From the NCBI GenBank assembly GCA_964618725.1, contig CAZUBK010000001.1:196908-260907 (forward strand): 64,000 nucleotides of DNA, in the 5' to 3' direction. The position numbers and the translations under genes are program-made. Positions 32,735-64,000 of the stretch are shown here, in pieces. Origin of the DNA: an uncultured Pseudomonadales bacterium (GTDB taxonomy: Bacteria > Patescibacteriota > Microgenomatia > UBA1400 > Chazhemtobacteraceae). Below the pieces are notes generated by a model. It did no database searches and was not told the DNA's origin. It saw only the letters and a list, made by a program, of their open reading frames with translations. Position 1 is the first letter of the stretch. Each line of letters opens with the position of its first letter.

Positions 32735-32741
32735 GAACTGA

Positions 32742-33863: not shown

Positions 33864-33870
33864 AAAGGTT

Positions 33871-35254: not shown

Positions 35255-35292
35255 GTGTAACCTATACTAGCATTTGAAAATTGACTGTCAAT

Positions 35293-40965: not shown

Positions 40966-40985
<20 letters not shown>
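40320..40985 (-). CDS. Class I SAM-dependent methyltransferase.
   Basis: ILEIGCGTGDLLAYL (motif I) and the roughly 221 aa size. Confidence 0.75.
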
Positions 40986-43196
<2,211 letters not shown>

Positions 43197-43304
43197 TTAT
43201 ATTCAATCATTCTGGTTTGCAAGTTAGAATTTAAGGATTGAATATATACCCAACATATCAGGTCGAAGATCCTGTTAAGGACTATGAATTCAAATTACTT
43301 GGGT

Positions 43305-46727: not shown

Positions 46728-46766
46728 GGTTGTGATTTCAACTTACTTGAGCTAGTGTAGGTAGTA

Positions 46767-52026: not shown

Positions 52027-52913
52027 TTCTCGCGTCTGTATAACTCCCAGAGTTTCATATAGGCAAAAGCGTGATGAAGCCCTGAGAACAGAGAGAAGAC
52101 AAAACCAGGAAAGCCATCTTGAAAGCCACGGTAGCGAAGGTACAAAGAGAGAAATGTGATGGTGGGTTTGAAGAACATGTAGTTTAGTGTGTTTGGAAGA
52201 GTTACTTTTACCTTTTTGTCTTTTAGTTGAGTCGCAGCGAGAGACGAATAACGATTCTCTCGGAGAAGATAACGGGAGAACTGTGGGGTGGCGTAGTGAT
52301 CAAGATCCCCGGTTAGCCAACCGGTGTCGCCCTCGACAACCATTTGCTCATGGACGTCTTTGGCAGGGAGATAGGCTTCGCCGTTTTGGAAAAGGCGAAT
52401 GACTGGATCAGGATATTGACCATTGTGCTTAAGATATCGATTGAGAAAAAAATTCTTCCTGGGAAGGAAGTAGGCGGCGGCTGGTTTAAAAAGAGGCTGA
52501 GGAGACTTGAAAATGGGTAGAAATTGGGTGATCTTTAATTTAATTGGAGATTGCCAGGAGTCAAAACCAAAATACTGACCATTGAGAAGCAATTTGATTT
52601 CCTGCTTCAACTCAGAGGTAACAAATTCATCGGCATCGAGTTGTAGAACCCAGTCTCCCTTGGCTTTTTTGTTAGCCATGGCTTTATTGATGTGAAAATT
52701 CGGTTTATTGGTGGTCTTGTAGACCCTTGCACCAAGTTTCTTGGCAATCAGAGGAGTCTTGTCAGTTGAGGAGCCGTCAACAACAATTATTTCATCGGCG
52801 ATGTCCTTAATCGACTTGAGACACTTCTCAAGGACGTCCTCTTCGTTGAAGGTAGTTAAGGTGACAGAAAGGGTTAACTTTTTGGTCATAATCATATTGT
52901 AGCCGATGACCAA
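52023..52913 (-). CDS. GT2-family glycosyltransferase with a C-terminal hydrophobic tail.
   Basis: LSVTLTTFNEEDVL...IIVVDGSSTDKT and LQLDADEF. Confidence 0.8.
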   Translation of the reverse strand: MVIGYNMIMTKKLTLSVTLTTFNEEDVLEKCLKSIKDIADEIIVVDGSSTDKTPLIAKKLGARVYKTTNKPNFHINKAMANKKAKGDWVLQLDADEFVTSELKQEIKLLLNGQYFGFDSWQSPIKLKITQFLPIFKSPQPLFKPAAAYFLPRKNFFLNRYLKHNGQYPDPVIRLFQNGEAYLPAKDVHEQMVVEGDTGWLTGDLDHYATPQFSRYLLRENRYSSLAATQLKDKKVKVTLPNTLNYMFFKPTITFLSLYLRYRGFQDGFPGFVFSLFSGLHHAFAYMKLWELYRREK

Positions 52914-52937
52914 TCATGTTTGCTGTACAATGAATTT

Positions 52938-53225
52938 ATGACGGAAGTAATTAACCGGATCAAAGAGAAGTCGGTGCCTATTTTGAAAGAGGCTGGTGTA
53001 TCTAAGTCGGCAATTTTTGGTTCATTTGTAAGAGGTGAGCAAAAAAAAGACAGTGATATAGATATGTTAATACAGCCCCCAAAAGGAATGGGATTATTTG
53101 CTCTTGCTGATTTACAGATGAAACTGGAGGATGCGCTAGGAAGAAAGGTAGATATTGTTACATATAAGTCTATATATCCTGAGCTGCGCGAGAGTATACT
53201 GAAAGATCAATATCAAATTTTGTAG
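52938..53225 (+). CDS. mnt: MNT-type minimal nucleotidyltransferase (antitoxin of a HepT/MNT TA pair). The track ORF starts at TTG 52920.
   Basis: The GSFVRGEQKKDSDIDMLI signature (GS...D-x-D) sits about 26 aa from the preferred ATG, as in family members. Confidence 0.7.
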   Translation: MTEVINRIKEKSVPILKEAGVSKSAIFGSFVRGEQKKDSDIDMLIQPPKGMGLFALADLQMKLEDALGRKVDIVTYKSIYPELRESILKDQYQIL

Positions 53226-53237
53226 CCAAATAGAACT

Positions 53238-53570
53238 ATGAAGAAGGATCCTAATGTCTATTTGAGACATGTACTTGAAAGTATAAGATTGGTTGAAAAA
53301 AGAATAAAAGGAATTAGATATGAAGAATTTGAGAAGAATGTAGATTTGCAAGATATGGTAGTCTGGAGAATTCAAGTTATCGGAGAAGCAATTAAAAATC
53401 TGCCTGATGAATACAAGGCGAATTATGCTGACATAGATTGGCATAATCCTGCAGGAATGAGAAATGCCCTAATTCATGGATATGCTGACATAGATTTTGA
53501 GATTGTATGGCGCACCGTCAAAGATGATTTACCAAAACTTAAAAACCAAATTAAAGATCTCTTGAGATGA
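53238..53570 (+). CDS. hepT: HepT-like (DUF86) HEPN-domain RNase toxin.
   Basis: RNALIHGY (R-x4-H-x-Y HEPN motif) near the C-terminus and the 110 aa size. It lies immediately downstream of mnt. Confidence 0.75.
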   Translation: MKKDPNVYLRHVLESIRLVEKRIKGIRYEEFEKNVDLQDMVVWRIQVIGEAIKNLPDEYKANYADIDWHNPAGMRNALIHGYADIDFEIVWRTVKDDLPKLKNQIKDLLR

Positions 53571-55048
53571 AAAATAGATTAGTTCCCTGGCAATGGCTAG
53601 TTGTTGTTTTAAGTTTCGTTTTTTTGTCGATCATCCGACTTCATGAGTATGACCGGATACCGACTCCCGGGCATGCAGAAGAACTATTGTACGGCTGGTC
53701 GGGGATATATCTTATAGAGGAAGGAGTACCGCAGAGCTGGTCAACGCTTGATTACCCAAAGGAGAACCTGGTCTTTGATGGAATTGTGGGAGATAAGCAA
53801 AATATGTTTTTGCCGGCAAAGCTGTATCGCCCGTGGCTAGATGAGCCGCCGTTGTATTCGCTTTTGTCAGGAGGCGCTGCGCACCTTTTTGGGGCGGATA
53901 GAACAAAGGTACTTCCTCCCTCATACATCAGATTACCCTCAGTCTTAGCATCTTTGGCGAGTTTGGTTTTGGTATTTGTAGTAGGTAGACAGTTTTTTGG
54001 ATTTTGGGCGGGATTTCTTGCTTTATGGATTTACGGAACATCGCCTATCATGGTATTTGGTAGTAGGTTGTCGGTGCCGGAGAATATTATTGCCTTAGCA
54101 ACGATTGGGATTCTGCCAATTGCCTTTAGCTATCTAAAAAAGCCTAAGTGGTGGGTAAGTTATTTATCTGGGATACTCAGTGCGGTGCTGGGATTGATGA
54201 AACCAACCGGCTTCTTTGTGGCACCACTGATGATTTTCTTGGCGGCAAAGAAGAAGAGATGGAAGGATGTAATAATAATCGCCGGACTGATGGCGCTAGG
54301 AGTTATTATCTTTATTGCTTATGGCAATTATTTCGGGCCCGATATCTTTAAGAGAATTGTAGAGATACAAGGGGTAAGATTTGCTGGCTGGACGGGACTG
54401 TCATATATTCTGACTTCCCCGGCATACGACATTGTTGAGTATTACGATGGTTGGTATATATTGGCTCTAATCTTTGCCCTCTTTTTCTCACTTATTCCCA
54501 AGAAGACTGAACAGCTAAAACTACTAAATCTCTTCTTCTATTTCTGGTTACTAGTCGGACTCTTTGGTGGAACTGAACAGGATCTCTTGCCTTGGTACCG
54601 ATATCCTCTTTTCCCACTATTAGCGCTCTATGGAGGACTGGGAATTGAGTATCTTTACAAGCGGATTAACTTCTATGGATTGGTGTTGGTGTTGGGACTA
54701 TTACTTACTTCCCGGTGGTATCTACATAATGCTTTCAGACCAACAACGCCACCTAATACCTTCCGGGCTGTCATGTTCTTGGCACTCCTTCCTTCTTTAT
54801 TTGGGATGATTTGGCGGAAGGGCTGGACAAGAAAGGTGTCGAGAATAATCTTGATAGCTGTGTTTGTTCTGGGAGCCTGGTGGAATAGTAAATATATCTA
54901 TGCCGCCTTTGCCATCAGATGCGAGAGTATTAGTTGTCCATTTGGGCCAAGTATTGGACTGTCAGAGGTGAGACTACCCTTTTTCTGGAGATTCCTGGTA
55001 CCTAAAGACTCGACAGGCATGCTTGACGCTAAAAGGCCGTGGTTTTAA
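53567..55048 (+). CDS. GT-C-like polytopic membrane glycosyltransferase.
   Basis: First-loop motif GHAEELLYGW and 12 or more TM helices. Its ATG overlaps the hepT stop (ATGA). Confidence 0.65.
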   Translation: MKNRLVPWQWLVVVLSFVFLSIIRLHEYDRIPTPGHAEELLYGWSGIYLIEEGVPQSWSTLDYPKENLVFDGIVGDKQNMFLPAKLYRPWLDEPPLYSLLSGGAAHLFGADRTKVLPPSYIRLPSVLASLASLVLVFVVGRQFFGFWAGFLALWIYGTSPIMVFGSRLSVPENIIALATIGILPIAFSYLKKPKWWVSYLSGILSAVLGLMKPTGFFVAPLMIFLAAKKKRWKDVIIIAGLMALGVIIFIAYGNYFGPDIFKRIVEIQGVRFAGWTGLSYILTSPAYDIVEYYDGWYILALIFALFFSLIPKKTEQLKLLNLFFYFWLLVGLFGGTEQDLLPWYRYPLFPLLALYGGLGIEYLYKRINFYGLVLVLGLLLTSRWYLHNAFRPTTPPNTFRAVMFLALLPSLFGMIWRKGWTRKVSRIILIAVFVLGAWWNSKYIYAAFAIRCESISCPFGPSIGLSEVRLPFFWRFLVPKDSTGMLDAKRPWF

Positions 55049-55057
55049 GGCTCAGTC

Positions 55058-55086
55058 TTGACACAAGGTTAATTTTTGTGTAATAT
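55058..55086 (+). promoter_or_regulatory. Sigma70-like promoter TTGACA-17-TAATAT.
   Basis: Read directly. It is followed by AGGAGG (55104..55109) and a TTG start 6 nt later. Confidence 0.45.
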
Positions 55087-55115
55087 AGGTCTACTTATCA
55101 AAGAGGAGGTATCTC

Positions 55116-55364
55116 TTGAAACAATATCTAATTTCTAGATCTCGACGCCTGCTTGAGCAGAATAGAGAGCTTCTTGTAGAGATGCAACAAAATAGGGACA
55201 ATGCTCGTTCCCTAGTTGATGGAGCAATTGCAGCCAAAACTGAATCGACGGCAAGGATTCAACTGGCTGCAGCAGAGAAATTGCTTGCCAAAAATAGAGG
55301 ACTGGGTCTTCAGGTCTGGATGCAATTAAAGTTAATCGACCTCTATATCTGGATAATCGGTTAA
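55116..55364 (+). CDS. Small 82-aa helical protein with a TTG start, function unknown.
   Basis: It has its own promoter, a consensus SD, and a downstream intrinsic terminator. The sequence is MKQYLISRSRRLLEQNRELLVEMQQ...LIDLYIWIIG. Confidence 0.45.
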   Translation: MKQYLISRSRRLLEQNRELLVEMQQNRDNARSLVDGAIAAKTESTARIQLAAAEKLLAKNRGLGLQVWMQLKLIDLYIWIIG

Positions 55365-55374
55365 CTAAGCAGTA

Positions 55375-55410
55375 GAATCGTCTCCTCAATGGGGACGATT
55401 TTTTTATTTT
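55375..55410 (+). terminator. Rho-independent terminator GAATCGTCTCC-tcaat-GGGGACGATT followed by TTTTTATTTT.
   Basis: A 10-bp stem followed by a T-tract. It overlaps the stop of the convergent GT-C gene. Confidence 0.5.
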
Positions 55411-57092
55411 CTCGCCAGATATTGGTTTGTGTCGAAGAGTCGGAAAGCTGTTTGGTTGTTGGGATAATTGATTATATGGATAGGCTTAATGCTTTCTGGG
55501 ACGGTTTCGTCGGCAACAATAATTAAGGAATTAGGGGATGCAGCGTCACTTGCCCAGTCAATGGGGTGGAATTCGTACTTACCAAAAGAGAGGCCGGTGG
55601 AGAAACCAAACTTATCAGGAGTGGAGAAGACAAGCTGTTGTTGAAGAAGTGTGGGGGGGTACTTGAGATAGAAGGCAGTGAGGATGTAGGGCTGATCGTA
55701 GGCGGTGGAGATAATAACTTTGTCATACTTGTTCTGATTCTTTTTAAGATAGTTACCCAGGTCCTTAAAGCCGTACTGCCAGGCGAAAGGGAGCTCTTTG
55801 GGATAACGATTGTAGTAAGAATTAAGATATTGAGAGAAATTAAAGGCAAGGGTTATGGCAAATAGCGAGATTAACAGAGGAATAACACTGGCGGACTTAT
55901 TCTCAAGCCAAGTAAGGAGCTTAATGATACCAAAAGCAATTGTGATGGAGAAAGAGATGACCATATTTTGAGAACGCAGAGCATGGGGGGACTGAAAGGT
56001 AAGGGCGGCAGCAATAGGAGCAATGAAGAGCCAGGCAAGGACTACCCGAGATGATCTTTGGCGAAAGGAAGTAAGCAGAGAAAATAAACCAAAGTAAAAG
56101 AAGGGGAGAAGGAGATGTAGACCTTGGCCAAAACCAGGGACTTTGGATCGGGCGATTTCATCACCTTTAATAAAGAGGAATTGAGGGGAAAAGTGAGAAA
56201 GATAGTTTTTGATAAATTCAAAGAGATAAGCGGTATAGCGATTGAAGCGAAGCTTAGTCAAAAATGAATCTGGATTTGGAGAAAGGCGTCTACCCTCGTG
56301 GACCCAAGAAAGCGGGCCAGTGTCGGCAAAAAGACCGACTCCAGAAAAGCGACTAGCGGCTGAGCCATTTAAGAACTGAAGAACCAGGGGGATACTTAGG
56401 ACTAATCCTAAAGTGATAGCAATACTAAGGAAGAGAAATTGTTTTTTCTTGAGTTGAGAGAGGATATCCTGATGGAAGATGAGAGTAAATGAAAAAAGTA
56501 AAAGGGGAGTGACCAGACGAGCGGCGTGATAGGTATACAAAGAAAGGAGAAAGAAAAAAGCGCTAGGAATCCAAAGTTGAGGTCGTTTCAGAGCTTTGAG
56601 GAAAAGGACTGTACCAAGAAGAATAAAAGTAGTTCCGGCGTTGACTTCCCACCCACCGCGGGAAAAATGAAGGTGCCAGGGAGAAGCAGCGAGGAGAAGG
56701 GCGGCGAGATATCCGGGAGTTAACTCAAAGTTGTTTTTCTTGAGCAATATTCTTTCCGGGAAGAGGTGGCTGACGAGGAGATAGATTAGATATACAGAGA
56801 GGATACTAAGTAGAGCTGAAGGAAGCCTTACCGACCATTCATTGAGACCAAAGAAATAGACGAAGGGGAGGGTGAGATAAACATAAACGCCGGGCTTGTA
56901 GTCGTCAAAGGAGCGAAACTCGATTGGCCAGGGGGTGCCATGTTCATCACGACCGGTTTGGATGAGGGAATAGGCGTTGTAGCCAAGGGCAGCTTCGTCG
57001 GCATTCAGTCCAGAGGGATAGCGATCAAGGGCAAATAGCCTAAGTGTGGCGGCTAGAAACAGAACCAGAAAGATGGGTATGAGCTTTTTCAT
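55404..57092 (-). CDS. GT-C glycosyltransferase of the PMT/ArnT family.
   Basis: LNADEAALGYNAYSLIQTGRDEHG first-loop motif. It contains a C7 tract (plus-strand G7 at 55653..55659). Confidence 0.75.
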   Translation of the reverse strand: MKKLIPIFLVLFLAATLRLFALDRYPSGLNADEAALGYNAYSLIQTGRDEHGTPWPIEFRSFDDYKPGVYVYLTLPFVYFFGLNEWSVRLPSALLSILSVYLIYLLVSHLFPERILLKKNNFELTPGYLAALLLAASPWHLHFSRGGWEVNAGTTFILLGTVLFLKALKRPQLWIPSAFFFLLSLYTYHAARLVTPLLLFSFTLIFHQDILSQLKKKQFLFLSIAITLGLVLSIPLVLQFLNGSAASRFSGVGLFADTGPLSWVHEGRRLSPNPDSFLTKLRFNRYTAYLFEFIKNYLSHFSPQFLFIKGDEIARSKVPGFGQGLHLLLPFFYFGLFSLLTSFRQRSSRVVLAWLFIAPIAAALTFQSPHALRSQNMVISFSITIAFGIIKLLTWLENKSASVIPLLISLFAITLAFNFSQYLNSYYNRYPKELPFAWQYGFKDLGNYLKKNQNKYDKVIISTAYDQPYILTAFYLKYPPTLLQQQLVFSTPDKFGFSTGLSFGKYEFHPIDWASDAASPNSLIIVADETVPESIKPIHIINYPNNQTAFRLFDTNQYLARK

Positions 57093-58804
57093 TGAAAGGC
57101 AACTATAACAAAGACGGGGAAACCGTCGGGGCGCTTAATTGTTTTGACAATTTGAGCATTTCTGGGAATAAGATCGAGGGTGGTAACTAGAAGACTGTTC
57201 GTGGTACTTATCTCTCCACCACTTTCGAGGGAGAGAGCTTTGACTTCTTTGTCAGTTGGGATCTGCCAATGATTGATGAAATAGGTATCGTCAATTTTGT
57301 CGGTCCAAAACCAATCTGATTTGGCAAAACGAATGTTGTCACTACCTGGCTGAAGATGTGATGGGTCAAGTTTGGAATAGAAGGCATAGAAAATATGGGG
57401 CTCACCAAGTTGTTTGATGATGAAAAAACGTTCGTATTCTTTTTTGTGCTCTTGCATATAGTCAATCGCTTGCTGATAGCCGTATTGCCAAGCCTGGGCA
57501 TAAGTAACTGGATACATAGTGAGATACGAGTGGAGATAACGACCAAATGAGAGGATAGTCAGGGCAGCCAAATAGATTGCGGTAAGGAAGCCAATAGGAA
57601 GCCGAGACTTAACTTTGGACTTTGCCATGTCAATGACCCAAATGGCTCCAAGAGTAGCCAGAAGAATGAGGGGGGGTATCAGAGGAGTGGGACGAAGTGA
57701 CTGAGGAGGGTCGGAGGTAAGGGCAGAGGGAATGGGAGCCAGGAGGAGGAACAGGAGGAGAAGATAAGATTCCTTTGTTTTGTGGCTCTTGAGCAGATAA
57801 ACAAAACCCAGAAGACTAAGAAGCGTAACGGGCAGGGTGAGCAGATTCTTGCCGGGAATGGCAAATTGGTATTGAGCTCCTCTGGTCTGGTACAGGAAAG
57901 TCGGAGAAAAGTGACCTAAATAGTTTTTGGTCGCTTGAGAAGCAAAATAGACCGGGCGATTATGAATCAGTCGAGGAAGGGGGGAGGGGAGTTTGCTGTT
58001 CAGGCGATTTTGACCGATCTGGTAGATAGCCGGCTCAGTAAGAATTGTGAGCTTGTTGTACCGGGCGGTACCAGTACCAGCGATAAACTGATAGCCCATT
58101 AAGCTGAGACTGCCAAGAAAGATTACCATTGAGATCAATAGACTTTTGTTTAGTTTGATTTTGGTTCTATAAAGAAGAAAAAAGGAGGGGAGAAGAAGGG
58201 GAATAAGAACACGATATGAGTTGTAGGTATGGAGAGTAGCGGAGAAAAGAATAGAACTAAGAAGCCAGTATCGGCTGTCATTAAGACCCTTGAGGAGTGA
58301 CCAAAGAGCGAAGACAAACAGAGTGAGGCCCAAGTTGGCTTCAAGGGCGGGGCGGGAGATGAAAAAATGCCAGGGGTTAAGAACAAGAAGGAAAGCGGCA
58401 ACAAGGCCTGGGTTTATTTCATATTCTTTTTTTCTCAAACTGATTTTTAGTCGCTGAGAGAGAAGAACGTTAGCGAGCAAGTAAAGGCCTAAAATGGCAA
58501 AGGAACCAGCTAAGATAGAAACAAAACGAATGGCGAATGAGTTGAGGCCGAAGATGACAATGGGGGGGATGGTGAGATAGATATAGAGTGGAAGCTTGTA
58601 ATCACCGAAGGCGCGAAAGATGAGAGGAAATCTAACCCCCCACTCATCTTTACCGGTTTGAAGAAGTGAGTAGGCGTTGTAACCGTGACTAACTTCGTCC
58701 CAGTTCAATGAAGGAGGGACTTCAGTAACTTGAGAGAAACGGAGCAGCGTCCCTACGATAAGCAGAATAATTAGGGGTAGATTCGTTTTTATGAATTTCG
58801 TCAC
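57089..58804 (-). CDS. GT-C glycosyltransferase of the PMT/ArnT family. The start is set at GTG (complement of about 58802..58804) rather than the track ATG at 58984, which would overlap the upstream gene by 176 nt.
   Basis: LNWDEVSHGYNAYSLLQTGKDEWG motif. It has two C7 tracts (plus-strand G7 at 57671..57677 and 58562..58568). Confidence 0.7.
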   Translation of the reverse strand: MTKFIKTNLPLIILLIVGTLLRFSQVTEVPPSLNWDEVSHGYNAYSLLQTGKDEWGVRFPLIFRAFGDYKLPLYIYLTIPPIVIFGLNSFAIRFVSILAGSFAILGLYLLANVLLSQRLKISLRKKEYEINPGLVAAFLLVLNPWHFFISRPALEANLGLTLFVFALWSLLKGLNDSRYWLLSSILFSATLHTYNSYRVLIPLLLPSFFLLYRTKIKLNKSLLISMVIFLGSLSLMGYQFIAGTGTARYNKLTILTEPAIYQIGQNRLNSKLPSPLPRLIHNRPVYFASQATKNYLGHFSPTFLYQTRGAQYQFAIPGKNLLTLPVTLLSLLGFVYLLKSHKTKESYLLLLFLLLAPIPSALTSDPPQSLRPTPLIPPLILLATLGAIWVIDMAKSKVKSRLPIGFLTAIYLAALTILSFGRYLHSYLTMYPVTYAQAWQYGYQQAIDYMQEHKKEYERFFIIKQLGEPHIFYAFYSKLDPSHLQPGSDNIRFAKSDWFWTDKIDDTYFINHWQIPTDKEVKALSLESGGEISTTNSLLVTTLDLIPRNAQIVKTIKRPDGFPVFVIVAFQ

Positions 58805-58808
58805 AAGA

Positions 58809-60428
58809 TTATTGTAGCTGATCGCAAAGTGGACTTTGGACGATAGAGCTCTGACACTTGAGACGAGGATTGGTTTGAAAGGCCTGAAAGCGAATCTCAC
58901 CCAGGGGATCCTTGATAACAAAGAGGGGACTGAGAGAGTGTTCGATTGTTTGGGAAGGCGAAATAGCGAGTGGACCACCGACAATGACCTGGTTTATGTA
59001 GACGTCGGTTTGCCAATCAATGTTACTAAAAGTTAAATTCCCAAAGGAAAGATTACCGTTAAATTCTGGGTGATAATAATAGTTGTGTTTGATCGAGGGA
59101 TCGGCTTCTTTCTGAAACCGGGCAGGCGGGTAGCGAAGAAAGAAAGCCAGGGCGGGGTAGGTGGGACTGAGTCTACCCTGATCGATGAGGAAGTGTTTTT
59201 TGGGATAGAGTTTGATTTGCTGGGCCAACTGATCGACTCCAAAGTCCCAGTATTTGGCGCGTTCTACCGGTAAGAGAAGGAAGTATGAATTGTAGAGTTG
59301 ACGAAGACTGAAGGAGAAAATGAGGAGTAGAAGAATAGGTGAAACTAGTTTGGGTATTCTTTCCAAAATTTGTTTTAGGCCTAAGGCGAGAATGATGCTT
59401 AAGGGGATAACTAAGGGGAGACTTCGATGACTTGAGAAGGGATCGTGGGTAAGAGCGGCAGGGATTGGCGAGAGAAAAAGAATGAGAAAAAGATATTTGT
59501 AAGGTAACTTAGCGCGATTAGAATAGAGCTGCAGTAACCCAAGAAAGTAGGGAATGAAGAGCCATAAGTAGAAGACGGCGAGACGAGGAATGGAGCGTTG
59601 AGGATCGGGGTCGGGAAGGAAAAACAAGGATTGAGGAGAAAAGTAGTTAAGATATTGAGAAGAGAATTCCCAAAGGAATCCTAAAAGAGTTGAGTTTCCT
59701 AAACTTAAGTTACCTTTTGTAAAAAAGGCAGGGGTAGTAAGAAGGTAGAACTGCGGTAATAGAAGAATAATACTGACAATGAGGCCCGCAAAAAAGTAGC
59801 GACGGGAAGGCTTGGAGAGGAGGATATCTTTGAAGAAAAGGAAATAGGAGACAAGATAAATGGGAACGAGAAAACGCTCCGAGTAGGCAGTGTACATAGA
59901 GAGAATGACGATAATGAGACCAGAGACGATGAAGACGGGACGGTGAAGGGAGATAAATAGGAACAGCCAGCCTAGAGCCAGGATAGCCATCCCAGGATTA
60001 ATTTCGTAGCCGGTCCTGGCGTAGAGGACAACCCAAGGAGACGTGGCAAGGATAAGGGCAGCCAGATTACTGACTTTACGGTTCTTAAACAGCTCTTGAG
60101 TGAGAAGATAAATAATGACGATACTAAGAAGGCCAAAAATGGCGGAAAGTGACCGAACGGCAAAAATAGTCGGGCCAAAGATGGTGACAAATGGAACGGC
60201 TGAATAGGTAAAAAGGGGGGGGCTATAAAAGCCAAAAAAGCGGAAAGTTACGGGAAAGGCCTTGCCCCACTCGTCTAGACCAGTTTTGGAAAGGGAGTAG
60301 GCGGTAAACCCGGGGAGGGCCTCGTCGACATAGAAGCCAGAGGGAATGCTACTCAGTTTGTAGAAGTACAAAACAAAGGCGAGAAGAAGCGTCAGAAAAA
60401 GCAAAAAGTAAGAGAGTGGCTTAGACAT
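58809..60428 (-). CDS. GT-C glycosyltransferase of the PMT/ArnT family.
   Basis: FYVDEALPGFTAYSLSKTGLDEWG motif. It has a C8 tract (plus-strand G8 at 60215..60222). Confidence 0.75.
   Translation of the reverse strand: MSKPLSYFLLFLTLLLAFVLYFYKLSSIPSGFYVDEALPGFTAYSLSKTGLDEWGKAFPVTFRFFGFYSPPLFTYSAVPFVTIFGPTIFAVRSLSAIFGLLSIVIIYLLTQELFKNRKVSNLAALILATSPWVVLYARTGYEINPGMAILALGWLFLFISLHRPVFIVSGLIIVILSMYTAYSERFLVPIYLVSYFLFFKDILLSKPSRRYFFAGLIVSIILLLPQFYLLTTPAFFTKGNLSLGNSTLLGFLWEFSSQYLNYFSPQSLFFLPDPDPQRSIPRLAVFYLWLFIPYFLGLLQLYSNRAKLPYKYLFLILFLSPIPAALTHDPFSSHRSLPLVIPLSIILALGLKQILERIPKLVSPILLLLIFSFSLRQLYNSYFLLLPVERAKYWDFGVDQLAQQIKLYPKKHFLIDQGRLSPTYPALAFFLRYPPARFQKEADPSIKHNYYYHPEFNGNLSFGNLTFSNIDWQTDVYINQVIVGGPLAISPSQTIEHSLSPLFVIKDPLGEIRFQAFQTNPRLKCQSSIVQSPLCDQLQ
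60215..60222. repeat. G8 (coding-strand C8) homopolymer inside GT-C gene 58809..60428; it encodes Pro-Pro.
   Basis: Read directly. Similar 7-mer tracts occur at 55653..55659, 57671..57677 and 58562..58568 in the neighbouring GT-C paralogs. Confidence 0.6.
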
Positions 60429-60834
60429 GTAAGGATTGTAGTCTTTTTAGTATTCTCAAGATACCTAATGAAATGGTGACAATGAAGAAAGGAAGTAGGG
60501 CCAGTGGTGGAGGAGAAGTTGTAGTAAACAAAATAAAGAAGAAAGCGGGGATTAAGTAGGAGAAGAAGATTAAAGGTGTGATAGAAGGAAGACCGAAAAG
60601 GAAAGGGAGTAGAAAGAGGGGATGAAGAAAGGCCTTTTCCTCTATGCCTCCTCGTTCGCGAGGATGGTTTTGAAAAAAGTAGAAATTAGGATCGAGGATT
60701 TCACCCAGATTTGTTTTAATTGTTTCTTTGTAATTGAGAACGAGAGGTCGAGGGAGAGAAACCAAGCTGATGGCAAGTGCCAGACAGGTAAAGAGAAGGC
60801 CTAACTTGTTTGGAGATAAATTAATCTTCTTCAT
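60421..60834 (-). CDS. Small hydrophobic membrane protein of 137 aa, hypothetical.
   Basis: Operonic 8-nt and 14-nt overlaps with the flanking GT-C genes, and a Pro/Leu/Phe-rich TM segment. Confidence 0.4.
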   Translation of the reverse strand: MKKINLSPNKLGLLFTCLALAISLVSLPRPLVLNYKETIKTNLGEILDPNFYFFQNHPRERGGIEEKAFLHPLFLLPFLFGLPSITPLIFFSYLIPAFFFILFTTTSPPPLALLPFFIVTISLGILRILKRLQSLHV

Positions 60835-62026
60835 GGGCCACGGGTAACAGTAGAAGAACTAAGTAGGCGACAAGCCAGGCTCGAGAGAGAGAAACAAGAC
60901 TAAGAATAGCGCTAGTTGAGGGAAGAAAAAAGCCGTTGCTGATGTTTAGTAGGTAGAAGAGACCAAGATTAAGTGAGGTGTCGAAAGAGGCAACAATGAT
61001 AGTCCAGCTTATGAGGGTAAAGATAAGAGGAAGAAAGTTTTTTGTCTTTATAGCAAAATAGATGAACCAGGGGGTGAGCCAGAGAAGCCATTGGGGATGG
61101 AAATGGGTAAAAGTGAGACTACTAAACAAGGCGGCGGCGAGAGCTGGGAAAAGCGAGATTTTTCTGTAGACAACTAAACCGATTACCAGAGTATAGAAGA
61201 TAAAGAACCAGGAGATGTCGTGTCCGGAGGCAACCGAGATACCGGCATAAGTGCTTTTAGTGATCTGGTCGGCGTAAAGAGCGTAGTAGCGATAAATAGG
61301 AGAGAAAATAAAGGGAAGAATACCAAGAAAGTAGGTAACAATGCCAAAAGAAATATTGGTGAGAGCAAAGCGAAGACTCTTCTTTTGGAAGTAGAGATAG
61401 AGAGCTAAGACAGGAAGAACAATAACGGCAGCTGGCTTGACTAGAGCAGATAGAGCGATAAAGACAGCAGCATGATGGAAGTGGCTCTTTTTCAGGGCGA
61501 TGAGGGCGAGAACGAGAAAAAAGGTAATGATGATATCGACTTGACCGATCATTGAGGAGACATAGATAGCGAGCGGATTAAGTGCCCAAACTATTTTGGC
61601 TAGACTCTTGTTTCTCTTGTCATCAAAAAGCTTAGGAATAGTAAAGATGATGGCAATGTCGGCGAGAATAAGCGGGAGCTTGTAGATAAATAAGGGGAGG
61701 TAGGGGGCTGCGTGGTTCCAAGAACCGGAAATGACTTGATCGGAGGCGCCTCTGAGAATGAGAAAGAAAGGAAGATAAACAAATGAGGGGAGAAGATAGG
61801 CGAGAGGTTGATAGTTTAGGATCATCTGATGGGGGAAGAGTCGGGCGATACCGTTGATATATTCGACGCCATAATCATAGAAATTTAGCCAATGTCCATC
61901 GAGAACAATAATCTTACTCGCAAAGGCGAGGATACTGAGATCGGGATGATAGGTAAAAATGGATAATACAAGACGCAGGATAATGCCGAAAACAATGACC
62001 AAAGAGACTAGTGAGATTTTTTTCAT
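60821..62026 (-). CDS. Polytopic membrane glycosyltransferase-like protein (GT-C-like, different subfamily).
   Basis: 401 aa with about 11 TM helices and a first-loop LDGHWLNFYDYG motif. Confidence 0.55.
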   Translation of the reverse strand: MKKISLVSLVIVFGIILRLVLSIFTYHPDLSILAFASKIIVLDGHWLNFYDYGVEYINGIARLFPHQMILNYQPLAYLLPSFVYLPFFLILRGASDQVISGSWNHAAPYLPLFIYKLPLILADIAIIFTIPKLFDDKRNKSLAKIVWALNPLAIYVSSMIGQVDIIITFFLVLALIALKKSHFHHAAVFIALSALVKPAAVIVLPVLALYLYFQKKSLRFALTNISFGIVTYFLGILPFIFSPIYRYYALYADQITKSTYAGISVASGHDISWFFIFYTLVIGLVVYRKISLFPALAAALFSSLTFTHFHPQWLLWLTPWFIYFAIKTKNFLPLIFTLISWTIIVASFDTSLNLGLFYLLNISNGFFLPSTSAILSLVSLSRAWLVAYLVLLLLPVAHEED

Positions 62027-62044
62027 AAGGTGATTTTAAGCTTT

Positions 62045-62854
62045 TTAGTCGCGAAAGCGTTTGCGTCTTAATATTACTTGCCATTTGTGTCCAGTCCATA
62101 AAGTTAGATTGAGTAGCTTAGAATATCGTTTACCAAAATAGGTCTCGGCCGATTGAAGAAGTGGACTTTGCAAATGTTCCTTGAAGTTGCCGCTCGCACC
62201 GTGGGCATGTTTTACTTTAGCTCTTGGAAAATAGTAGAGAGGGAGATTGTTGGTTTTTAGCTTGCGGCAAAAGTCGAAGTCCTCGTAGTATAGAAAATAC
62301 TTTTCGTTTAAGCCACCAATATTATTGATGGTTTCCCGAGGAATCAAGAAGGCGGCCATAACTGCCACGTCAACTTTCTGGGCACGATTGCCAGGGAGAT
62401 ATTTACCAAAACAGGTTTTGCAATTTAAGAAGTTTTTCTTGATTGCATTCAAAATGGTGGGGAAATGAAAGACTGAAGCTTGGGGATGGCCGTCCAGATC
62501 AAGGAGTCGAGGGGCAACTGCACCAAGGGGAAATGTCTTTTGGGCGAAGTCGTAGAGGAGACTTAGGCAGTCCCCGACTACTCGAGTATCGGGGTTAAGG
62601 AGAAGAAGGTACTCCCCGGTCGACTGACCTATTCCCTGATTGACTCCCTTAGAGAAGCCTTGGTTGAGTTTACTGGCAATGACAGTGGGCTTAAGGGGGT
62701 GGCTCTTGGCGACTTTGATGGAATCGTCAGAGGAGGCGTTGTCGACAATAATAACCTCTTTGTTAAGTTTGTCCTTAGAATTCTTGATTGAAGTAAGAAG
62801 GCCAGGAAGATGCTTGGCTGAGTTGTAAGAAACGATGATAATGCTTAGGTCCAT
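62045..62854 (-). CDS. GT2-family glycosyltransferase.
   Basis: LSIIIVSYNSAKHL...VIIVDNASSDDS. Confidence 0.8.
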   Translation of the reverse strand: MDLSIIIVSYNSAKHLPGLLTSIKNSKDKLNKEVIIVDNASSDDSIKVAKSHPLKPTVIASKLNQGFSKGVNQGIGQSTGEYLLLLNPDTRVVGDCLSLLYDFAQKTFPLGAVAPRLLDLDGHPQASVFHFPTILNAIKKNFLNCKTCFGKYLPGNRAQKVDVAVMAAFLIPRETINNIGGLNEKYFLYYEDFDFCRKLKTNNLPLYYFPRAKVKHAHGASGNFKEHLQSPLLQSAETYFGKRYSKLLNLTLWTGHKWQVILRRKRFRD

Positions 62855-62887
62855 TAAACGTAATTGTGCTGGAGAAACCGAATAAAT

Positions 62888-63775
62888 TCAAGTTGAAGTG
62901 CCTTGTGAGAGTAGAGACAATATTTGACGATCAGTCAGTTTAGCTTGGTGACGATTATGGATTCTTTCTTTGGCGACTTGAGGATAGAAACGCATGGCTG
63001 CGAGAATAACTTTGATATAGCCTGGGTGTTTGATAGTATGGCTAACAAGAAACTTGAAGTGTGATACCGCCAGATCCCGATCGGTTAGATTCTGCCAATG
63101 AAAGAGTAACTCATTTCTTTGTTTGAGAAGGCTAACAAAGTTCTTGTTAAGTTTCTTGAAAGTAGATTCGTGTTGATGATCAACCAAGGACTGTGGATCC
63201 CAGATGATCTGGTAACCCTGTTTTAGCGCCCGCCAACCAAGATCAATATCTTCAAAGTAGCCAGGGGAGTATATTTCGTTGTATCCACCCAATTTGTCCC
63301 AAATCTTTTTTTTGAGAATGCAACTTCCTCCGGAGGCCCATGCAATTGAGCGCGCTTTAGAGCGGTCGTTACCTTCTATGAACTGAACTTTGCCGTTGTG
63401 CCAGCTTACCTTAGGCCAACTGTGTTGTTTTTCGGCAAAGGTAACGGCAAAGACCTTAGGATCATTCAGGCGCTTCAAGGCGGAGTCAAGATATCCCTTC
63501 TCTGGAGAGACGTCGTTATTGAGCAGGACGACTAGATCAGTGCTGGTATGAGCTACGGCCTGGTTTGTGTTTTTGGGGAAACCAAGATTCTTTAGGTTTC
63601 TTTGAAAAACTATTTTTGGGTACTTACGCGCCATGAACTCGGGGGTGTCGTCAGTGCCGGCATCGTCATAGACATAGATCTTGTCCACCATAGGCGAGTT
63701 CTTAATGACACTAGGCAGATGCTTCTCTAAGAGATGGCGGCCGTTGAAAGAGGTGATAACAATGGAGTAGTTCAT
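62888..63775 (-). CDS. GT2-family glycosyltransferase.
   Basis: YSIVITSFNGRHLL...YVYDDAGTDDT and LLNNDVSPE. Confidence 0.8.
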   Translation of the reverse strand: MNYSIVITSFNGRHLLEKHLPSVIKNSPMVDKIYVYDDAGTDDTPEFMARKYPKIVFQRNLKNLGFPKNTNQAVAHTSTDLVVLLNNDVSPEKGYLDSALKRLNDPKVFAVTFAEKQHSWPKVSWHNGKVQFIEGNDRSKARSIAWASGGSCILKKKIWDKLGGYNEIYSPGYFEDIDLGWRALKQGYQIIWDPQSLVDHQHESTFKKLNKNFVSLLKQRNELLFHWQNLTDRDLAVSHFKFLVSHTIKHPGYIKVILAAMRFYPQVAKERIHNRHQAKLTDRQILSLLSQGTST

Positions 63776-64000
63776 AAACGTTTTTTGATCCCGAGATAGA
63801 AACTAAATATACTTGTGACTACTAAGGAGATCGATGAGATAAGTAAACCACGGCGGAAAGACAAAGGCGAGTAATGGAATACTACGTTGTGTTCACCTGG
63901 TGGGACGATAATAGATCTCAAGGCACCATTGGCCTGATAGATTTTGGTTTCCTGGTCATCGATGTAGGCCTGCCAGTCGGTGACGTAGGTATCAGCTAGG
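63772..64000 (-). CDS. C-terminal fragment of a membrane protein (YfhO/GT-C-like tail). The gene begins beyond the right edge of the window.
   Basis: My hand translation gives an open minus-strand frame to the window end, ...YQANGALRSIIVPPGEHNVVFHYSPLSFRRGLLISSISLVVTSIFSFYLGIKKRL, followed by a stop. There is an ATGA overlap with the GT2 start at 63775. Confidence 0.4.
   Translation of the reverse strand, partial: LADTYVTDWQAYIDDQETKIYQANGALRSIIVPPGEHNVVFHYSPLSFRRGLLISSISLVVTSIFSFYLGIKKRL

What the first reader, a model, noticed from the sequence alone, without database searches (positions are those of the whole stretch)
55404..62026. Tandem array of PMT-like paralogs with a diversified catalytic-loop motif
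Three consecutive genes (55404..57092, 57089..58804, 58809..60428) share DE-x5-GY[NT]AYSL-x-TG[RKL]DE[HW]G but have divergent C-terminal soluble domains. Pairs 15883/17609 and 37245/38816 are likewise tandem duplicates. Repeated local duplication followed by divergence of the C-terminal periplasmic domain is the signature of acceptor or donor specificity diversification.
Basis: seen in the sequence. Interest (0 to 1): 0.55.

Follow-up and report, generated by a model that had tools for sequence, protein, structure and literature searches.

The report
Ancient tandem membrane glycosyltransferase paralogs
Three neighbouring genes encode old, well-diverged copies of a membrane sugar-transferring enzyme (ArnT/PMT type); the same gene row occurs in many ultra-small Patescibacteria, so it is a conserved but untested cell-surface glycosylation locus, not a recent duplication.

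Summary
Genes A (55404..57092), B (57089..58804) and C (58809..60428) lie head to tail on the minus strand. They are full-length homologues at 29-32% identity and all pass the Pfam PMT_2 threshold. The shared motif is real, but its spacing is DE-x3-G[YF][NT]AYSL-x2-TG-x-DE-[HW]-G. The other two pairs are also true tandem paralogs.

The motif lies in the most conserved part of the proteins, not a diversified one. The C-terminal domains are homologous to each other. They diverge about as much as the large loop at residues 241-330.

The duplications are ancient. Each paralog has its own orthologs at about 45-64% identity across Patescibacteria. In related genomes A ends a row of 2-6 such genes. 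Synonymous sites are saturated, so dN/dS says nothing.

An AlphaFold model of A (pLDDT 95.9) has the GT-C fold and is closest overall to ArnT. The C-terminal domain alone has no significant PDB match.

Best reading: three active enzymes using lipid-phosphate-linked sugars, with distinct acceptor or linkage specificities, in a 7-gene operon inside a 64-kb glycan island. Donor, acceptor and any complex formation are untested. Moderate-to-low interest: new members of a known kind.

The parts
55404..57092 (-). Paralog A (562 aa), an ArnT/PMT_2-type GT-C glycosyltransferase and the last gene of the array
   Evidence: ORF. PF13231 34.1 bits. More than 3000 homologues at about 50% identity, and 64% to the closest. 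AF2 model pLDDT 95.9. GT-C fold matches.
57089..58804 (-). Paralog B (571 aa, GTG start), overlapping the start of A by 4 nt
   Evidence: PF13231 26.8 bits. 1821 homologues, with orthologs at about 50-56% identity. 25 contig lengths are shared between its hit list and that of A.
58809..60428 (-). Paralog C (539 aa), the rarer class, found mostly in Woesebacteria, with a Cys pair in its C-terminal tail
   Evidence: PF13231 41.4 bits and PF02366 24.5 bits. 183 homologues at 35-48% identity. The closest relative locus L011 has no C between E and B.
56944..56999 (-). Coding segment for the loop-1 motif of A (D32..E50: DEAALGYNAYSLIQTGRDE)
   Evidence: Repeat family D1. Invariant D32, E33, S42 and D49.
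58644..58699 (-). Coding segment for the loop-1 motif of B (DEVSHGYNAYSLLQTGKDE)
   Evidence: Repeat family D1, 73% identical to the A copy. Alignment.
60271..60326 (-). Coding segment for the loop-1 motif of C (DEALPGFTAYSLSKTGLDE)
   Evidence: Repeat family D1, 66% identical to the A copy. Alignment.
55407..55817 (-). C-terminal soluble alpha/beta domain of A (residues 426-562)
   Evidence: AF2 domain model pLDDT 94.5. No significant PDB fold match, best E 0.17. 17-29% identity between paralogs but about 52% among orthologs.
57092..57526 (-). C-terminal domain of B, with the class signature SDWFWTDK...NDWxIP...LESG
   Evidence: Alignment A3.
58812..59285 (-). C-terminal domain of C, with the class signature NYY...FANIETR...VGD...QAKEH and a KC...C tail
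   Evidence: Alignment A3.
60421..60834 (-). 137-aa membrane protein (about 4 hydrophobic segments) that overlaps both neighbours
   Evidence: No Pfam or NCBIfam match. 43% identity over 47 aa to a 272-aa protein inside the L010 array (E 4e-5). Weak colinear match to profile positions 275-386 of the paralog family.
60821..62026 (-). Gene E, a GT87/MptA-B-like GT-C glycosyltransferase (401 aa); its counterparts in L007 and L011 sit immediately upstream of the B-type gene, and a GT87-like gene also lies at the upstream edge of the L010 array
   Evidence: PF09594 26.8 bits. Counterparts at 45-46% identity just upstream of the B-type gene in L007 and L011; a weak PF09594 gene call at the upstream edge of the L010 array.
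62045..62854 (-). Soluble GT2 glycosyltransferase (269 aa), same operon
   Evidence: PF00535 78.8 bits. No hydrophobic segments.
62888..63775 (-). Soluble GT2 glycosyltransferase (295 aa), probably the first gene of the operon
   Evidence: PF13641 and PF00535.
55374..55402 (+). Terminator-like hairpin (12-bp stem followed by a T run) 1 nt beyond the stop codon of A; it marks the end of the convergent transcription units
46767..48548 (+). Paralog K (593 aa), a fourth full-length member with the same C-terminal domain; its motif reads DE...GYQVRSL..TGRDY
   Evidence: 24-29% identity to A, B and C. PF13231 36 bits. 51% identical ortholog in L011.
53567..55048 (+). Gene D, a more distant PMT_2 GT-C (493 aa), convergent with A and syntenic in relatives
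   Evidence: PF13231 47.2 bits. 59-79% identical orthologs next to the arrays in L004, L007, L009 and L011.
15883..19504 (-). Tandem pair F/G (578 and 631 aa), polytopic membrane paralogs with a [DE]E motif in their first loop
   Evidence: 32% identity, E 5e-70. No Pfam hit. hhalign probability 73% to the GT-C core. A GT2 with 4 C-terminal hydrophobic segments lies upstream at 20973..22031.
37245..40357 (-). Tandem pair H/I (524 and 513 aa), polytopic membrane paralogs of unassigned family
   Evidence: 30% identity, E 7e-81. No Pfam hit. hhalign probability to the A family only 12.6%.

Best explanation
**What it is.** A, B and C are three anciently diverged paralogs of an uncharacterised ArnT/PMT_2-type subfamily of GT-C membrane glycosyltransferases. 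They form the distal part of a tightly packed 7-gene minus-strand operon: GT2, GT2, GT87-like GT-C, a small membrane protein, then C, B and A. The operon lies in a 64-kb cell-envelope glycan island of a Patescibacteria (Microgenomates-like) genome.

**Shown.**
- Homology between the three genes, and the GT-C fold of A.
- Conservation of the acidic first-loop motif and other invariant residues in all three.
- A separate ortholog clade for each paralog.
- Conserved synteny in related genomes.

**Inferred.**
- Each enzyme sits in the cytoplasmic membrane with its first loop and C-terminal domain outside.
- Each takes a sugar from a polyprenyl-phosphate-linked donor and transfers it, with inversion, to an extracytoplasmic acceptor. 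The acceptor could be a surface protein or a wall or lipid-linked glycan.
- D32/E33 would act as the catalytic and acceptor-binding pair. K66 and R373 would hold the donor phosphate, and E149 would contact the sugar.
- The three are not redundant. The large periplasmic loop (residues 241-330) and the C-terminal domain differ between paralogs but are conserved within each class, and probably set acceptor or linkage specificity. The enzymes would then act as successive steps, possibly in a complex.
For: - **Paralogy.** Full-length similarity with E between 6e-38 and 9e-72.
- **Family and fold.** PF13231 above threshold for all three. The AF2 model of A has pLDDT 95.9. Foldseek gives probability 1.0 to STT3, AglB, PglB, ArnT, ALG9/12, Pmt4, AftB and EmbC. 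ArnT gives the best mutual coverage (TMq 0.51-0.53, TMt 0.53-0.55). ArnT is also the only PDB hit to the sequence profile (E 0.009).
- **Catalytic residues.**
  - D32, E33, D49, P138, W139, R145 and R373 are invariant in 114 sequences.
  - E149 is nearly invariant (at least 90%) in that alignment and identical in A, B and C.
  - By position in the first loop, D32/E33 corresponds to the DE pair that PMC7801869 aligns across ArnT (D55/E56), Pmt1 (D77/E78) and Emb (D281/D282).
  - In the profile alignment, the KP of 'DYKP' pairs with the KP of ArnT 'KPPFHMW', and E149 pairs with the D of ArnT 'FNTLDMT'.
  - Equating these ArnT residues with K85 and D158 assumes a 3-residue tag offset.
- **Old duplications, purifying selection.** Orthologs are 45-64% identical against 29-32% for paralogs. 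They form separate clades in a neighbour-joining tree.
- **Divergence pattern.** Loop 1 is 38-45% identical between paralogs. The loop at 241-330 is 19-26% and the C-terminal domain 17-29%. The last two are 45-61% identical among orthologs.
- **Synteny.** A ends a row of 2-6 such genes in all ten related loci. A GT87-like gene lies upstream of the array in L007, L010 and L011. The flank downstream of A carries a GT2-GT4 pair in L007 and L009-L011, and a D-type GT-C in L004, L007, L009 and L011.
- **Operon packing.** Gene overlaps of 4, 8 and 14 nt and gaps of 4-33 nt, with a terminator-like hairpin just after A.
- **Context.** The window also encodes a Wzm/Wzt ABC transporter, nonulosonic-acid and heptose-type sugar-activation genes, and many GT2 and GT4 enzymes.
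- **Precedent.** In Caldicellulosiruptor bescii, deleting a 556-aa bacterial GT39 removed glycosylation of secreted proteins (PMC6151902). A GT-C C-terminal module that binds the acceptor glycan is described in PMC11127046.
Against: - No biochemical or genetic data exist for any member, and no curated NCBIfam model matches A or B.
- Donor and acceptor are unknown. No GtrB/ArnC-type polyprenyl-phosphate sugar synthase or GtrA-type flippase was identified in the operon itself. The two operon GT2s have no hydrophobic segments.
- K66 is not conserved in C.
- The C-terminal domain has no structural relative in the PDB, so its role in acceptor binding is only an analogy.
- Topology was inferred from the ArnT-like architecture, not computed from coordinates.
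- Divergence between paralogs with conservation among orthologs would also be expected if the paralogs were obligate subunits of one complex rather than enzymes with different substrates.
Confidence: 0.6

Rival explanations
1. One reading: the array arose by recent, repeated local tandem duplication in this lineage, followed by rapid divergence of the C-terminal domain to explore new acceptor or donor specificities.
For: The genes are adjacent, co-oriented and homologous. The C-terminal domain is among the least conserved regions between copies. The number of copies in the array varies from 2 to 6 among relatives.
Against: - Each copy is much closer to orthologs in other genomes (45-64%) than to its neighbours (29-32%).
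- The copies form separate clades containing sequences from several candidate phyla.
- Synonymous sites are saturated.
- The C-terminal domains are well conserved within each class.
- Differences in array content look like gain, loss or relocation of old paralogs. C-type genes sit elsewhere, on the opposite strand, in L008 and L009.
Confidence: 0.05
2. The paralogs are obligate subunits of a hetero-oligomeric GT-C complex, as with Pmt1-Pmt2 or EmbA-EmbB. In this view divergence reflects subunit specialisation, perhaps with one partner mainly scaffolding or presenting substrate, rather than independent substrate specificities.
For: - A-type and B-type genes co-occur on the same contigs very often. 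25 contig lengths are shared between the two top-120 hit lists.
- A and B overlap by 4 nt, which would allow coupled translation.
- PMTs form obligate dimers (abstract of PMC12705809, listed). From general knowledge, EmbA-EmbB is a heterodimer encoded by adjacent paralogs; PDB 7bvf appears among the fold hits.
Against: - No interaction was tested, because no multimer prediction was available.
- All three keep the full set of invariant catalytic-site residues, so none looks like a dead subunit.
- The gene directly upstream of A differs between genomes: B here and in L011, a different clade 'X' in L001-L005 and L008-L010. That argues against a strict A-B pair.
Confidence: 0.2
3. They are true protein O-mannosyltransferases (GT39 Pmt orthologs, as annotated) that O-mannosylate Ser/Thr of secreted proteins, pilins or S-layer proteins. 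The three copies would cover different protein substrates.
For: - NCBI names relatives 'glycosyltransferase family 39 protein'.
- The first-loop DE pair matches Pmt1 D77/E78.
- C also passes PF02366 (24.5 against 22.7 bits).
- Pmt4 and Pmt1-Pmt2 are among the fold hits.
- A bacterial GT39 of similar size is required for glycosylation of secreted proteins in C. bescii.
Against: - A and B do not hit PF02366.
- PMT structures are weaker fold matches (E 2e-4 to 6e-2, TMq 0.28-0.43) than OST and ArnT.
- No MIR domain is present.
- The only sequence-level PDB hit is ArnT.
- The genes sit among polysaccharide-type genes, next to a GT87/MptA-B-like gene, which fits glycan or lipoglycan elaboration at least as well.
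Confidence: 0.2
4. They are distant oligosaccharyltransferases (STT3/PglB/AglB-like) that transfer glycans en bloc to proteins, using a degenerate WWDYG-like motif (AWQYG, SWQYG or YWDFG) at the start of the C-terminal domain.
For: The top six full-length Foldseek hits are OST catalytic subunits (E 1e-8 to 4e-7). W438 and G441 are nearly invariant just after the last membrane helix.
Against: - The third motif position is not conserved: it is G in most C-type sequences.
- The C-terminal domain alone finds no OST periplasmic domain, with a best E of 0.17 to unrelated folds.
- There is no PF02516 hit.
- The sequence profile hits only ArnT.
- From general knowledge, OSTs do not have a PMT/ArnT-type DE pair at this position.
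Confidence: 0.03

Closest known systems
ArnT (GT83; Cupriavidus metallidurans, PDB 5EZM/5F15), undecaprenyl-phosphate-L-Ara4N:lipid A transferase
   Same: - It is the only solved structure found by the sequence profile (E 0.009).
- It gives the best mutual structural coverage (TMq 0.51-0.53, TMt 0.53-0.55).
- Size is similar (about 550 aa).
- The architecture matches: a polytopic membrane module followed by a small C-terminal periplasmic domain (13 TM plus PD in ArnT, per PMC7801869).
- It has a first-loop DE pair (D55/E56). The profile alignment pairs the family's K66 and E149 with a Lys and an Asp of ArnT. On an assumed numbering offset these are K85 and D158.
   Different: - Only about 12-13% identity in the structural alignment.
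- The NCBIfam ArnT equivalog scores 24.8 bits against a cut-off of 567, and only for C.
- The C-terminal domain alone does not retrieve ArnT.
- From general knowledge, Patescibacteria lack lipid A, so the acceptor must differ.
- There are several paralogs in a row rather than one gene in an arn operon.
Protein O-mannosyltransferases (GT39: fungal Pmt1/2/4, actinobacterial Pmt, C. bescii Cbes_1864)
   Same: - Same GT-C/PMT clan.
- Same first-loop DE motif, essential in Pmt1.
- Multiple paralog subfamilies with distinct substrates that form dimers.
- A 556-aa bacterial GT39 is needed for glycosylation of secreted proteins.
- Relatives of A, B and C are labelled GT39 by NCBI.
   Different: - A and B fail PF02366.
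- PMT structures are weaker fold matches.
- There is no MIR domain. Instead there is a C-terminal alpha/beta domain with no known structural relative.
- A protein acceptor has not been shown.
Mycobacterial embCAB / Aft / MptA-B system (GT53, GT85, GT87 and related GT-C enzymes that build arabinan and mannan)
   Same: - From general knowledge, three adjacent GT-C paralogs (embC-embA-embB), each with a C-terminal extracytoplasmic domain.
- EmbC, EmbA-EmbB, AftB, AftA and AftD are among the fold hits.
- A GT87/MptA-B-like gene lies upstream of the array here and in L007, L010 and L011.
- The concept of a battery of GT-C enzymes building a surface glycan outside the cell from polyprenyl-phosphate sugars.
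   Different: - Emb proteins are about 1,050-1,100 aa with large carbohydrate-binding domains, whereas these proteins are about 550 aa.
- Fold matches are weak (E 1e-3 to 6e-2, TMq 0.37-0.42).
- The C-terminal domain here has no fold match in the PDB, Emb proteins included.
- There is no evidence for arabinan- or mannan-type products.
Three-component extracytoplasmic glycosylation systems (Gtr, CsbB/GtcA/YfhO, and the GT136 system of PMC11127046)
   Same: The logic matches: a lipid-phosphate sugar made in the cytoplasm, flipped, then used by a GT-C enzyme whose C-terminal module binds the acceptor glycan. The window has a candidate donor synthase, a GT2 with 4 C-terminal hydrophobic segments at 20973..22031.
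   Different: That candidate synthase sits 35 kb away, next to the F/G pair. No flippase or synthase was identified in the A/B/C operon. The number of GT-C genes per locus is far higher than in those systems.

Membership tests
GT-C superfamily (GT-C_A fold class) | Polytopic membrane module with the conserved GT-C helix arrangement | tested here: met
   AF2 model of A has pLDDT 95.9. Foldseek gives probability 1.0 to 27 GT-C structures: OST, ArnT, ALG9/12, PMT, Aft and Emb.
GT-C superfamily (GT-C_A fold class) | Conserved acidic residue or residues in the first extracytoplasmic loop | tested here: met
   D32 and E33 are invariant in 114 sequences, including A, B, C and K. The equivalent pairs in ArnT, Pmt1 and Emb are listed in PMC7801869.
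GT-C superfamily (GT-C_A fold class) | Uses a polyprenyl-(pyro)phosphate-linked sugar donor | not testable with these tools
   Only inferred from the fold and from conserved basic residues (K66, R373).
Pfam PF13231 PMT_2 | Whole-protein score above the gathering threshold (26.1 bits) | tested here: met
   A 34.1, B 26.8 (marginal), C 41.4 and K 36.0 bits.
GT39 protein O-mannosyltransferase (PF02366 PMT) | Match to the PMT model above threshold (22.7 bits) | tested here: inconclusive
   C scores 24.5 bits. A and B have no hit at E <= 0.01.
GT39 protein O-mannosyltransferase (PF02366 PMT) | Luminal MIR (beta-trefoil) domain, as in eukaryotic PMTs | tested here: not met
   No MIR hit in Pfam. The model shows no beta-trefoil insertion. 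From general knowledge, bacterial Pmts also lack it, so this alone does not exclude a bacterial-type Pmt.
GT39 protein O-mannosyltransferase (PF02366 PMT) | Transfers mannose to Ser/Thr of proteins | not testable with these tools
   No data.
ArnT / GT83 | Match to the curated ArnT equivalog model (NF009784, cut-off 567 bits) | tested here: not met
   C scores 24.8 bits. A and B have no hit.
ArnT / GT83 | ArnT-like architecture: membrane module plus a small C-terminal periplasmic domain, about 550 aa | tested here: met
   Best mutual TM-scores are to 5ezm and 5f15. Profile hit to 5ezm with E 0.009. The isolated C-terminal domain, however, did not retrieve ArnT.
Oligosaccharyltransferase STT3/PglB/AglB (GT66) | WWDYG motif in a C-terminal domain of the OST central-core fold | tested here: not met
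   Only W-x-[YF]-G is conserved, and the third position varies. The domain model has no OST match, with a best E of 0.17 to unrelated proteins. There is no PF02516 hit.
Emb-type arabinosyltransferases (GT53) | Large C-terminal carbohydrate-binding domains and about 1,050-1,100 aa length | tested here: not met
   The proteins are 539-571 aa. Their roughly 135-aa C-terminal domain has no PDB fold match. Emb fold hits are weak, E >= 1e-3.

The most novel reading that the evidence does not exclude
The GT87-like gene, the B...A row and the flanking GT-C/GT2/GT4 genes seen in several relatives could be a Patescibacteria-wide extracytoplasmic glycan assembly line. It would be functionally comparable to the mycobacterial Mpt/Aft/Emb machinery. 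Old GT-C paralogs would work as hetero-oligomers and use a previously unseen C-terminal acceptor-binding domain. Together they would build or decorate a lineage-specific surface glycopolymer or glycoprotein coat, for example on pili or the S-layer, that matters for the epibiotic lifestyle. That would explain why a genome thought to be small spends at least 13 GT-C-like genes within 64 kb on this.
Probability: 0.15. Interest if true: 0.65.

Novelty: new member of a known kind. Interest (0 to 1): 0.33.

Why it matters
- **Unknown surface chemistry.** Patescibacteria have small genomes and mostly live attached to other microbes, yet their surface chemistry is almost unknown.
- **A defined target.** This window shows that one lineage carries a very dense set of outward-facing, lipid-sugar-dependent glycosyltransferases. 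The core of it is an A-terminated row of old paralogs, with a GT87-like gene upstream in several relatives. That core is shared by many members of the group. This gives a concrete, conserved locus for studying their cell-surface glycans.
- **Practical markers.** It also gives class-specific signatures for telling the paralogs apart in annotation. At present they are all labelled 'GT39' or 'ArnT-like'.
- **Limits.** The enzymes belong to a well-known superfamily, and tandem GT-C paralogs have precedents such as embCAB and the PMT subfamilies.

Tried and rejected
Nei-Gojobori pS is 0.63-0.87 in every domain and pair, at or above the 0.75 saturation limit, so dS is undefined or above 1.4. The test is uninformative. 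I used domain-wise amino-acid identity between paralogs and among orthologs instead.
- **OST-like reading.** The top Foldseek hits and the AWQYG/YWDFG motif suggested it. I rejected it after the isolated C-terminal domain model found no OST domain and the third motif position proved variable.
- **Sequence search of the PDB.** A alone gave nothing at E <= 1. The family profile gave only ArnT.
- **NCBIfam.** No curated family for A or B.
- **F/G and H/I as GT-C.** hhalign against the A-family profile gave 73% and 12.6% probability.
- **Small 137-aa ORF as a remnant of a paralog.** Only 5.9 bits against the family profile, which is too weak. It does resemble a 272-aa protein inside another array.
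- **Literature.** Six searches found no paper describing these CPR GT-C arrays.
- **Recent duplication or assembly artefact.** Rejected on identity levels and the lack of DNA repeats.

Full report

Yes. The minus strand carries three consecutive ORFs:
- A, 55404..57092, 562 aa.
- B, 57089..58804, 571 aa, starting at a GTG four bases after the stop of C.
- C, 58809..60428, 539 aa.

All three exact protein sequences are on record in the public collection, on a 325-kb NCBI contig. This supports the gene calls, including B's GTG start.

Pairwise BLASTP shows full-length homology:

| Pair | Identity | E-value |
|---|---|---|
| A/B | 31.7% | 9e-72 |
| A/C | 31.1% | 6e-61 |
| B/C | 28.5% | 6e-38 |

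They are neither unrelated nor near-identical. The only DNA-level repeat in 53000..62100 is a 56-nt stretch at 66-73% identity, found at 56944-56999, 58644-58699 and 60271-60326. It encodes the shared motif.

It reads DE-x3-G[YF][NT]AYSL-x2-TG-x-DE-[HW]-G.

F/G (15883..17619 and 17609..19504) is 32% identical, E 5e-70. H/I (37245..38819 and 38816..40357) is 30% identical, E 7e-81.

**2. What are the proteins?**

*Family.* All three pass Pfam PF13231 (PMT_2), and C also just passes PF02366 (PMT). No curated NCBIfam model matches A or B.

*Fold.* I built a 114-sequence alignment of A, B, C, K and their database relatives. It gave an AlphaFold2 model of A with mean pLDDT 95.9. Foldseek against the PDB returns only GT-C enzymes at the top:
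- OST catalytic subunits STT3, AglB and PglB (E 1e-8 to 8e-7).
- ArnT (E 9e-7 and 3e-6).
- ALG9/12, Pmt4, AftB and EmbC.

ArnT gives the best mutual coverage (TMq 0.51-0.53, TMt 0.53-0.55). It is also the only solved structure that the sequence profile finds (E 0.009). The proteins are therefore ArnT/PMT_2-type GT-C glycosyltransferases. 'PMT-like' is acceptable as a clan label but not as a specific assignment.

*Catalytic residues.*
- D32, E33, S42, D49, P56, P138, W139, R145, G335 and R373 are invariant across the 114 sequences.
- PMC7801869 aligns a first-loop acidic pair across the GT-C/PMT clan: ArnT D55/E56, Pmt1 D77/E78 and Emb D281/D282. Substitutions there abolish Pmt1 function.
- By position in the first loop, D32/E33 is that pair.
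- The profile alignment pairs the family's 'KP' (K66 in A) with the KP of ArnT 'KPPFHMW'.
- It also pairs E149 with the D of ArnT 'FNTLDMT'.
- If the chain carries a 3-residue tag offset, these are K85 (phosphate contact) and D158 (sugar and acceptor contact) as described. That numbering step is my inference.

A, B and C all keep these residues, except that C lacks the Lys. None looks like a dead enzyme.

**3. The C-terminal domain**

They are, but they are homologous. W438, G441, F474, P480 and Q484 are nearly invariant. An alignment of the domains alone shows one common scaffold with class-specific second halves:
- A-type: DKFGFSTG..FGKYEF.
- B-type: SDWFWTDK...NDWxIP...LESG.
- C-type: NYY...FANIETR...VGD...QAKEH, plus a C-terminal Cys pair.

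Domain-wise identity:

| Region (A numbering) | Between paralogs | Within an ortholog group |
|---|---|---|
| First loop, 1-65 | 38-45% | 53-68% |
| Membrane core, 66-240 | 27-36% | 36-50% |
| Large loop, 241-330 | 19-26% | 56-61% |
| C-terminal domain, 426-562 | 17-29% | 45-53% |

So the 'catalytic-loop motif' is the most conserved part, with only a few class-specific positions: A-type DEH, B-type DEW, C-type DEy. Divergence between paralogs is concentrated in two regions that are conserved within each class. That is the expected signature of old, specialised paralogs.

A separate model of the domain (A residues 418-562) had pLDDT 94.5. It found nothing significant in the PDB: the best hit had E 0.17 and TM 0.34, to unrelated enzymes. 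This also removes an idea I had entertained. I had wondered whether the conserved W-x-[YF]-G just after the last membrane helix (AWQYG, SWQYG, YWDFG) is a degenerate OST WWDYG motif. The third position is in fact variable.

**4. Age of the duplications**

Nei-Gojobori pS is 0.63-0.87 in every domain and pair, which is saturated. The suggested dN/dS test therefore cannot be done.

Database searches show that each paralog has its own orthologs, much closer than its neighbours are:
- A: 3056 hits, typically about 50% identical and 64% for the closest.
- B: 1821 hits, about 50-56%.
- C: 183 hits, 35-48%, mostly Woesebacteria.

The named sources are Patescibacteria: Woese-, Collier-, Shapiro- and Wildermuthbacteria, and Ca. 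Chazhemtobacterium. A neighbour-joining tree of 146 sequences separates A, B, C and K clades, plus a further clade 'X'. This tree has no support values and is only indicative.

Twenty-five contig lengths are shared between the A and B top-120 lists, so the two are frequently on the same contig.

**5. Synteny**

I examined ten related loci. In all ten, the A-type gene is the last of a co-oriented row of 2-6 such paralogs.
- A GT87/MptA-B-like GT-C (E) lies upstream of the array in L007, L010 and L011.
- Beyond A come a GT2 and a GT4 in L007 and L009-L011.
- A D-type PMT_2 gene lies next to the array in L004, L007, L009 and L011.
- The window has this layout too: GT2, GT2, E, a 137-aa membrane protein, C, B, A, then convergent D, then GT2, another PMT_2, GT4, a PIG-V-like GT-C, and K.
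- The closest relative (L011; A 64% and D 79% identical) has E-B-A with no C and no small ORF.
- In L008 and L009 a C-type gene sits several kb away on the other strand.
- In L001-L005 and L008-L010 the gene directly upstream of A belongs to clade X rather than B.

Array membership therefore changes by gain, loss or relocation of old paralogs, not by fresh duplication in place.

**6. Context**

The seven genes from 63775 down to 55404 overlap or are separated by at most 33 nt. They end at a terminator-like hairpin one base after the stop of A. They most likely form one operon.

The whole 64-kb window is a glycan-biosynthesis island:
- A Wzm/Wzt ABC transporter.
- NeuB and a cytidylyltransferase.
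- SIS, GHMP-kinase, HAD and nucleotidyltransferase genes of a heptose-type pathway.
- A DegT aminotransferase and UDP-sugar dehydrogenases and epimerases.
- FkbM-type methyltransferases.
- About a dozen GT2 and GT4 genes.
- Nine genes with Pfam GT-C hits, plus the F/G and H/I pairs of polytopic membrane proteins.

F/G shows a 73% hhalign probability to the GT-C core, and H/I only 12.6%. A GT2 with four C-terminal hydrophobic segments lies upstream of F/G at 20973..22031. From general knowledge, this is the typical build of a polyprenyl-phosphate sugar synthase.

**7. Mechanism and rivals**

*Best reading (confidence about 0.6).* These are three active GT-C enzymes that use polyprenyl-phosphate-sugar donors. 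Their distinct acceptor or linkage specificities are set by the large periplasmic loop and the C-terminal domain. They act on an extracytoplasmic protein or glycan.

*What is shown.* Fold, homology, conserved catalytic-site residues, the age of the paralogs and the synteny.

*What is inferred.* Donor type, topology, and the roles of the loop and the C-terminal domain.

*Rivals.*
- A hetero-oligomer reading, as for Pmt1-Pmt2 or EmbA-EmbB, is compatible with the data but untested. The variable partner directly upstream of A weakens it.
- A strict protein O-mannosyltransferase assignment is possible (C. bescii GT39 precedent) but is not favoured by the model scores or the gene context.
- The OST reading and the recent-duplication reading are largely excluded.

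**8. Novelty**

Six literature searches found no description of these arrays. The Ca. Chazhemtobacterium genome paper only counts '29 genes of glycosyl transferases'.

The proteins are nonetheless ordinary members of a known superfamily. Public annotation already labels them GT39 or ArnT-like, and tandem GT-C paralogs have clear precedents.

I rate this as new members of a known kind, with moderate-to-low interest. Two points are worth recording: the conserved A-terminated paralog array in Patescibacteria, and a C-terminal domain with no PDB fold match.

Noticed in passing
window 1..64000: GC skew on the + strand is positive in every 2-kb bin (0.02 to 0.35; cumulative 5.8) although most genes are on the - strand, so the coding strand is C-rich. 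The same strand-wide G/C disparity is reported for Ca. Chazhemtobacterium, Collierbacteria and Beckwithbacteria of order UBA1400 (PMC7143001). This hints at the window's origin.
   Followed up: partly
window 52920..53570 (+): A nucleotidyltransferase (PF01909/PF18765) plus HepT-like RNase (PF01934) toxin-antitoxin pair sits inside the glycosyltransferase locus and abuts the start of D (4-nt overlap). In L008 and L009 two small genes, one with a weak YafQ-toxin hit in L009, occupy the equivalent position just after the A-type gene. This junction therefore seems to be a recurrent landing site for such modules.
   Followed up: partly
window 60421..60834 (-): A 137-aa membrane protein wedged between the GT87-like gene and C, overlapping both. 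It has no family match. It resembles part of a 272-aa protein inside the L010 array (43% over 47 aa) and, very weakly, the loop-to-helix region (profile positions 275-386) of the paralog family. It could be a remnant or an accessory subunit.
   Followed up: partly
window 15255..22031 (-): A second apparent operon: a GT2 with four C-terminal hydrophobic segments (a candidate polyprenyl-phosphate sugar synthase), two methyltransferases, the membrane paralogs G and F (no Pfam family; [DE]E in the first loop; hhalign 73% to the GT-C core), then a hexapeptide acyltransferase. It looks like a separate extracytoplasmic glycosylation module with unclassified transferases.
   Followed up: partly
window 36512..40985 (-): The tandem paralogs H and I (524 and 513 aa, about 8 hydrophobic segments, conserved YIDHP.TP motif) are flanked by an FkbM-type and a class I methyltransferase. 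They have no Pfam or NCBIfam family, and similarity to the GT-C profile is insignificant (12.6%). Their function is open.
   Followed up: partly
window 46767..55048: Counting A, B, C, K, D, E, the PMT_2 genes at 50698..52026 and 40966..42276, the PIG-V-like gene at 48533..49669, and the F/G and H/I pairs, the window holds 13 GT-C or GT-C-like membrane proteins in 64 kb. That density is unusually high for a genome type thought to be small.
   Followed up: partly
window 757..9396 and 30411..35254: NeuB-type nonulosonic acid synthase, a cytidylyltransferase, Wzm/Wzt ABC exporter genes (Wzt with a C-terminal glycan-binding domain), and a heptose-type activation set (two SIS, GHMP kinase, HAD phosphatase, nucleotidyltransferase). 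Together these suggest an ABC-transporter-dependent polysaccharide carrying unusual sugars.
   Followed up: no
window 55116..55364 (+): An 82-aa ORF (predicted coiled region plus a hydrophobic tail) lies in the 355-nt gap between the convergent D and A genes. It is directly followed by the strong terminator-like hairpin at 55374-55402. It could be a real small gene.
   Followed up: no
window 4326..5402 (-), 9485..10813 (+), 24707..25459 (-): Three sizeable ORFs (358, 442 and 250 aa) inside the glycan island have no Pfam match at E <= 0.001.
   Followed up: no
L001, L002, L003 (genome contigs): Three public MAGs titled 'uncultured Gammaproteobacteria bacterium' carry the same array as the Woesebacteria and Shapirobacteria loci. 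Hits labelled Spirochaetia or Planctomycetes also appear in the homologue lists. These are probably mislabelled or mis-binned Patescibacteria sequences.
   Followed up: no
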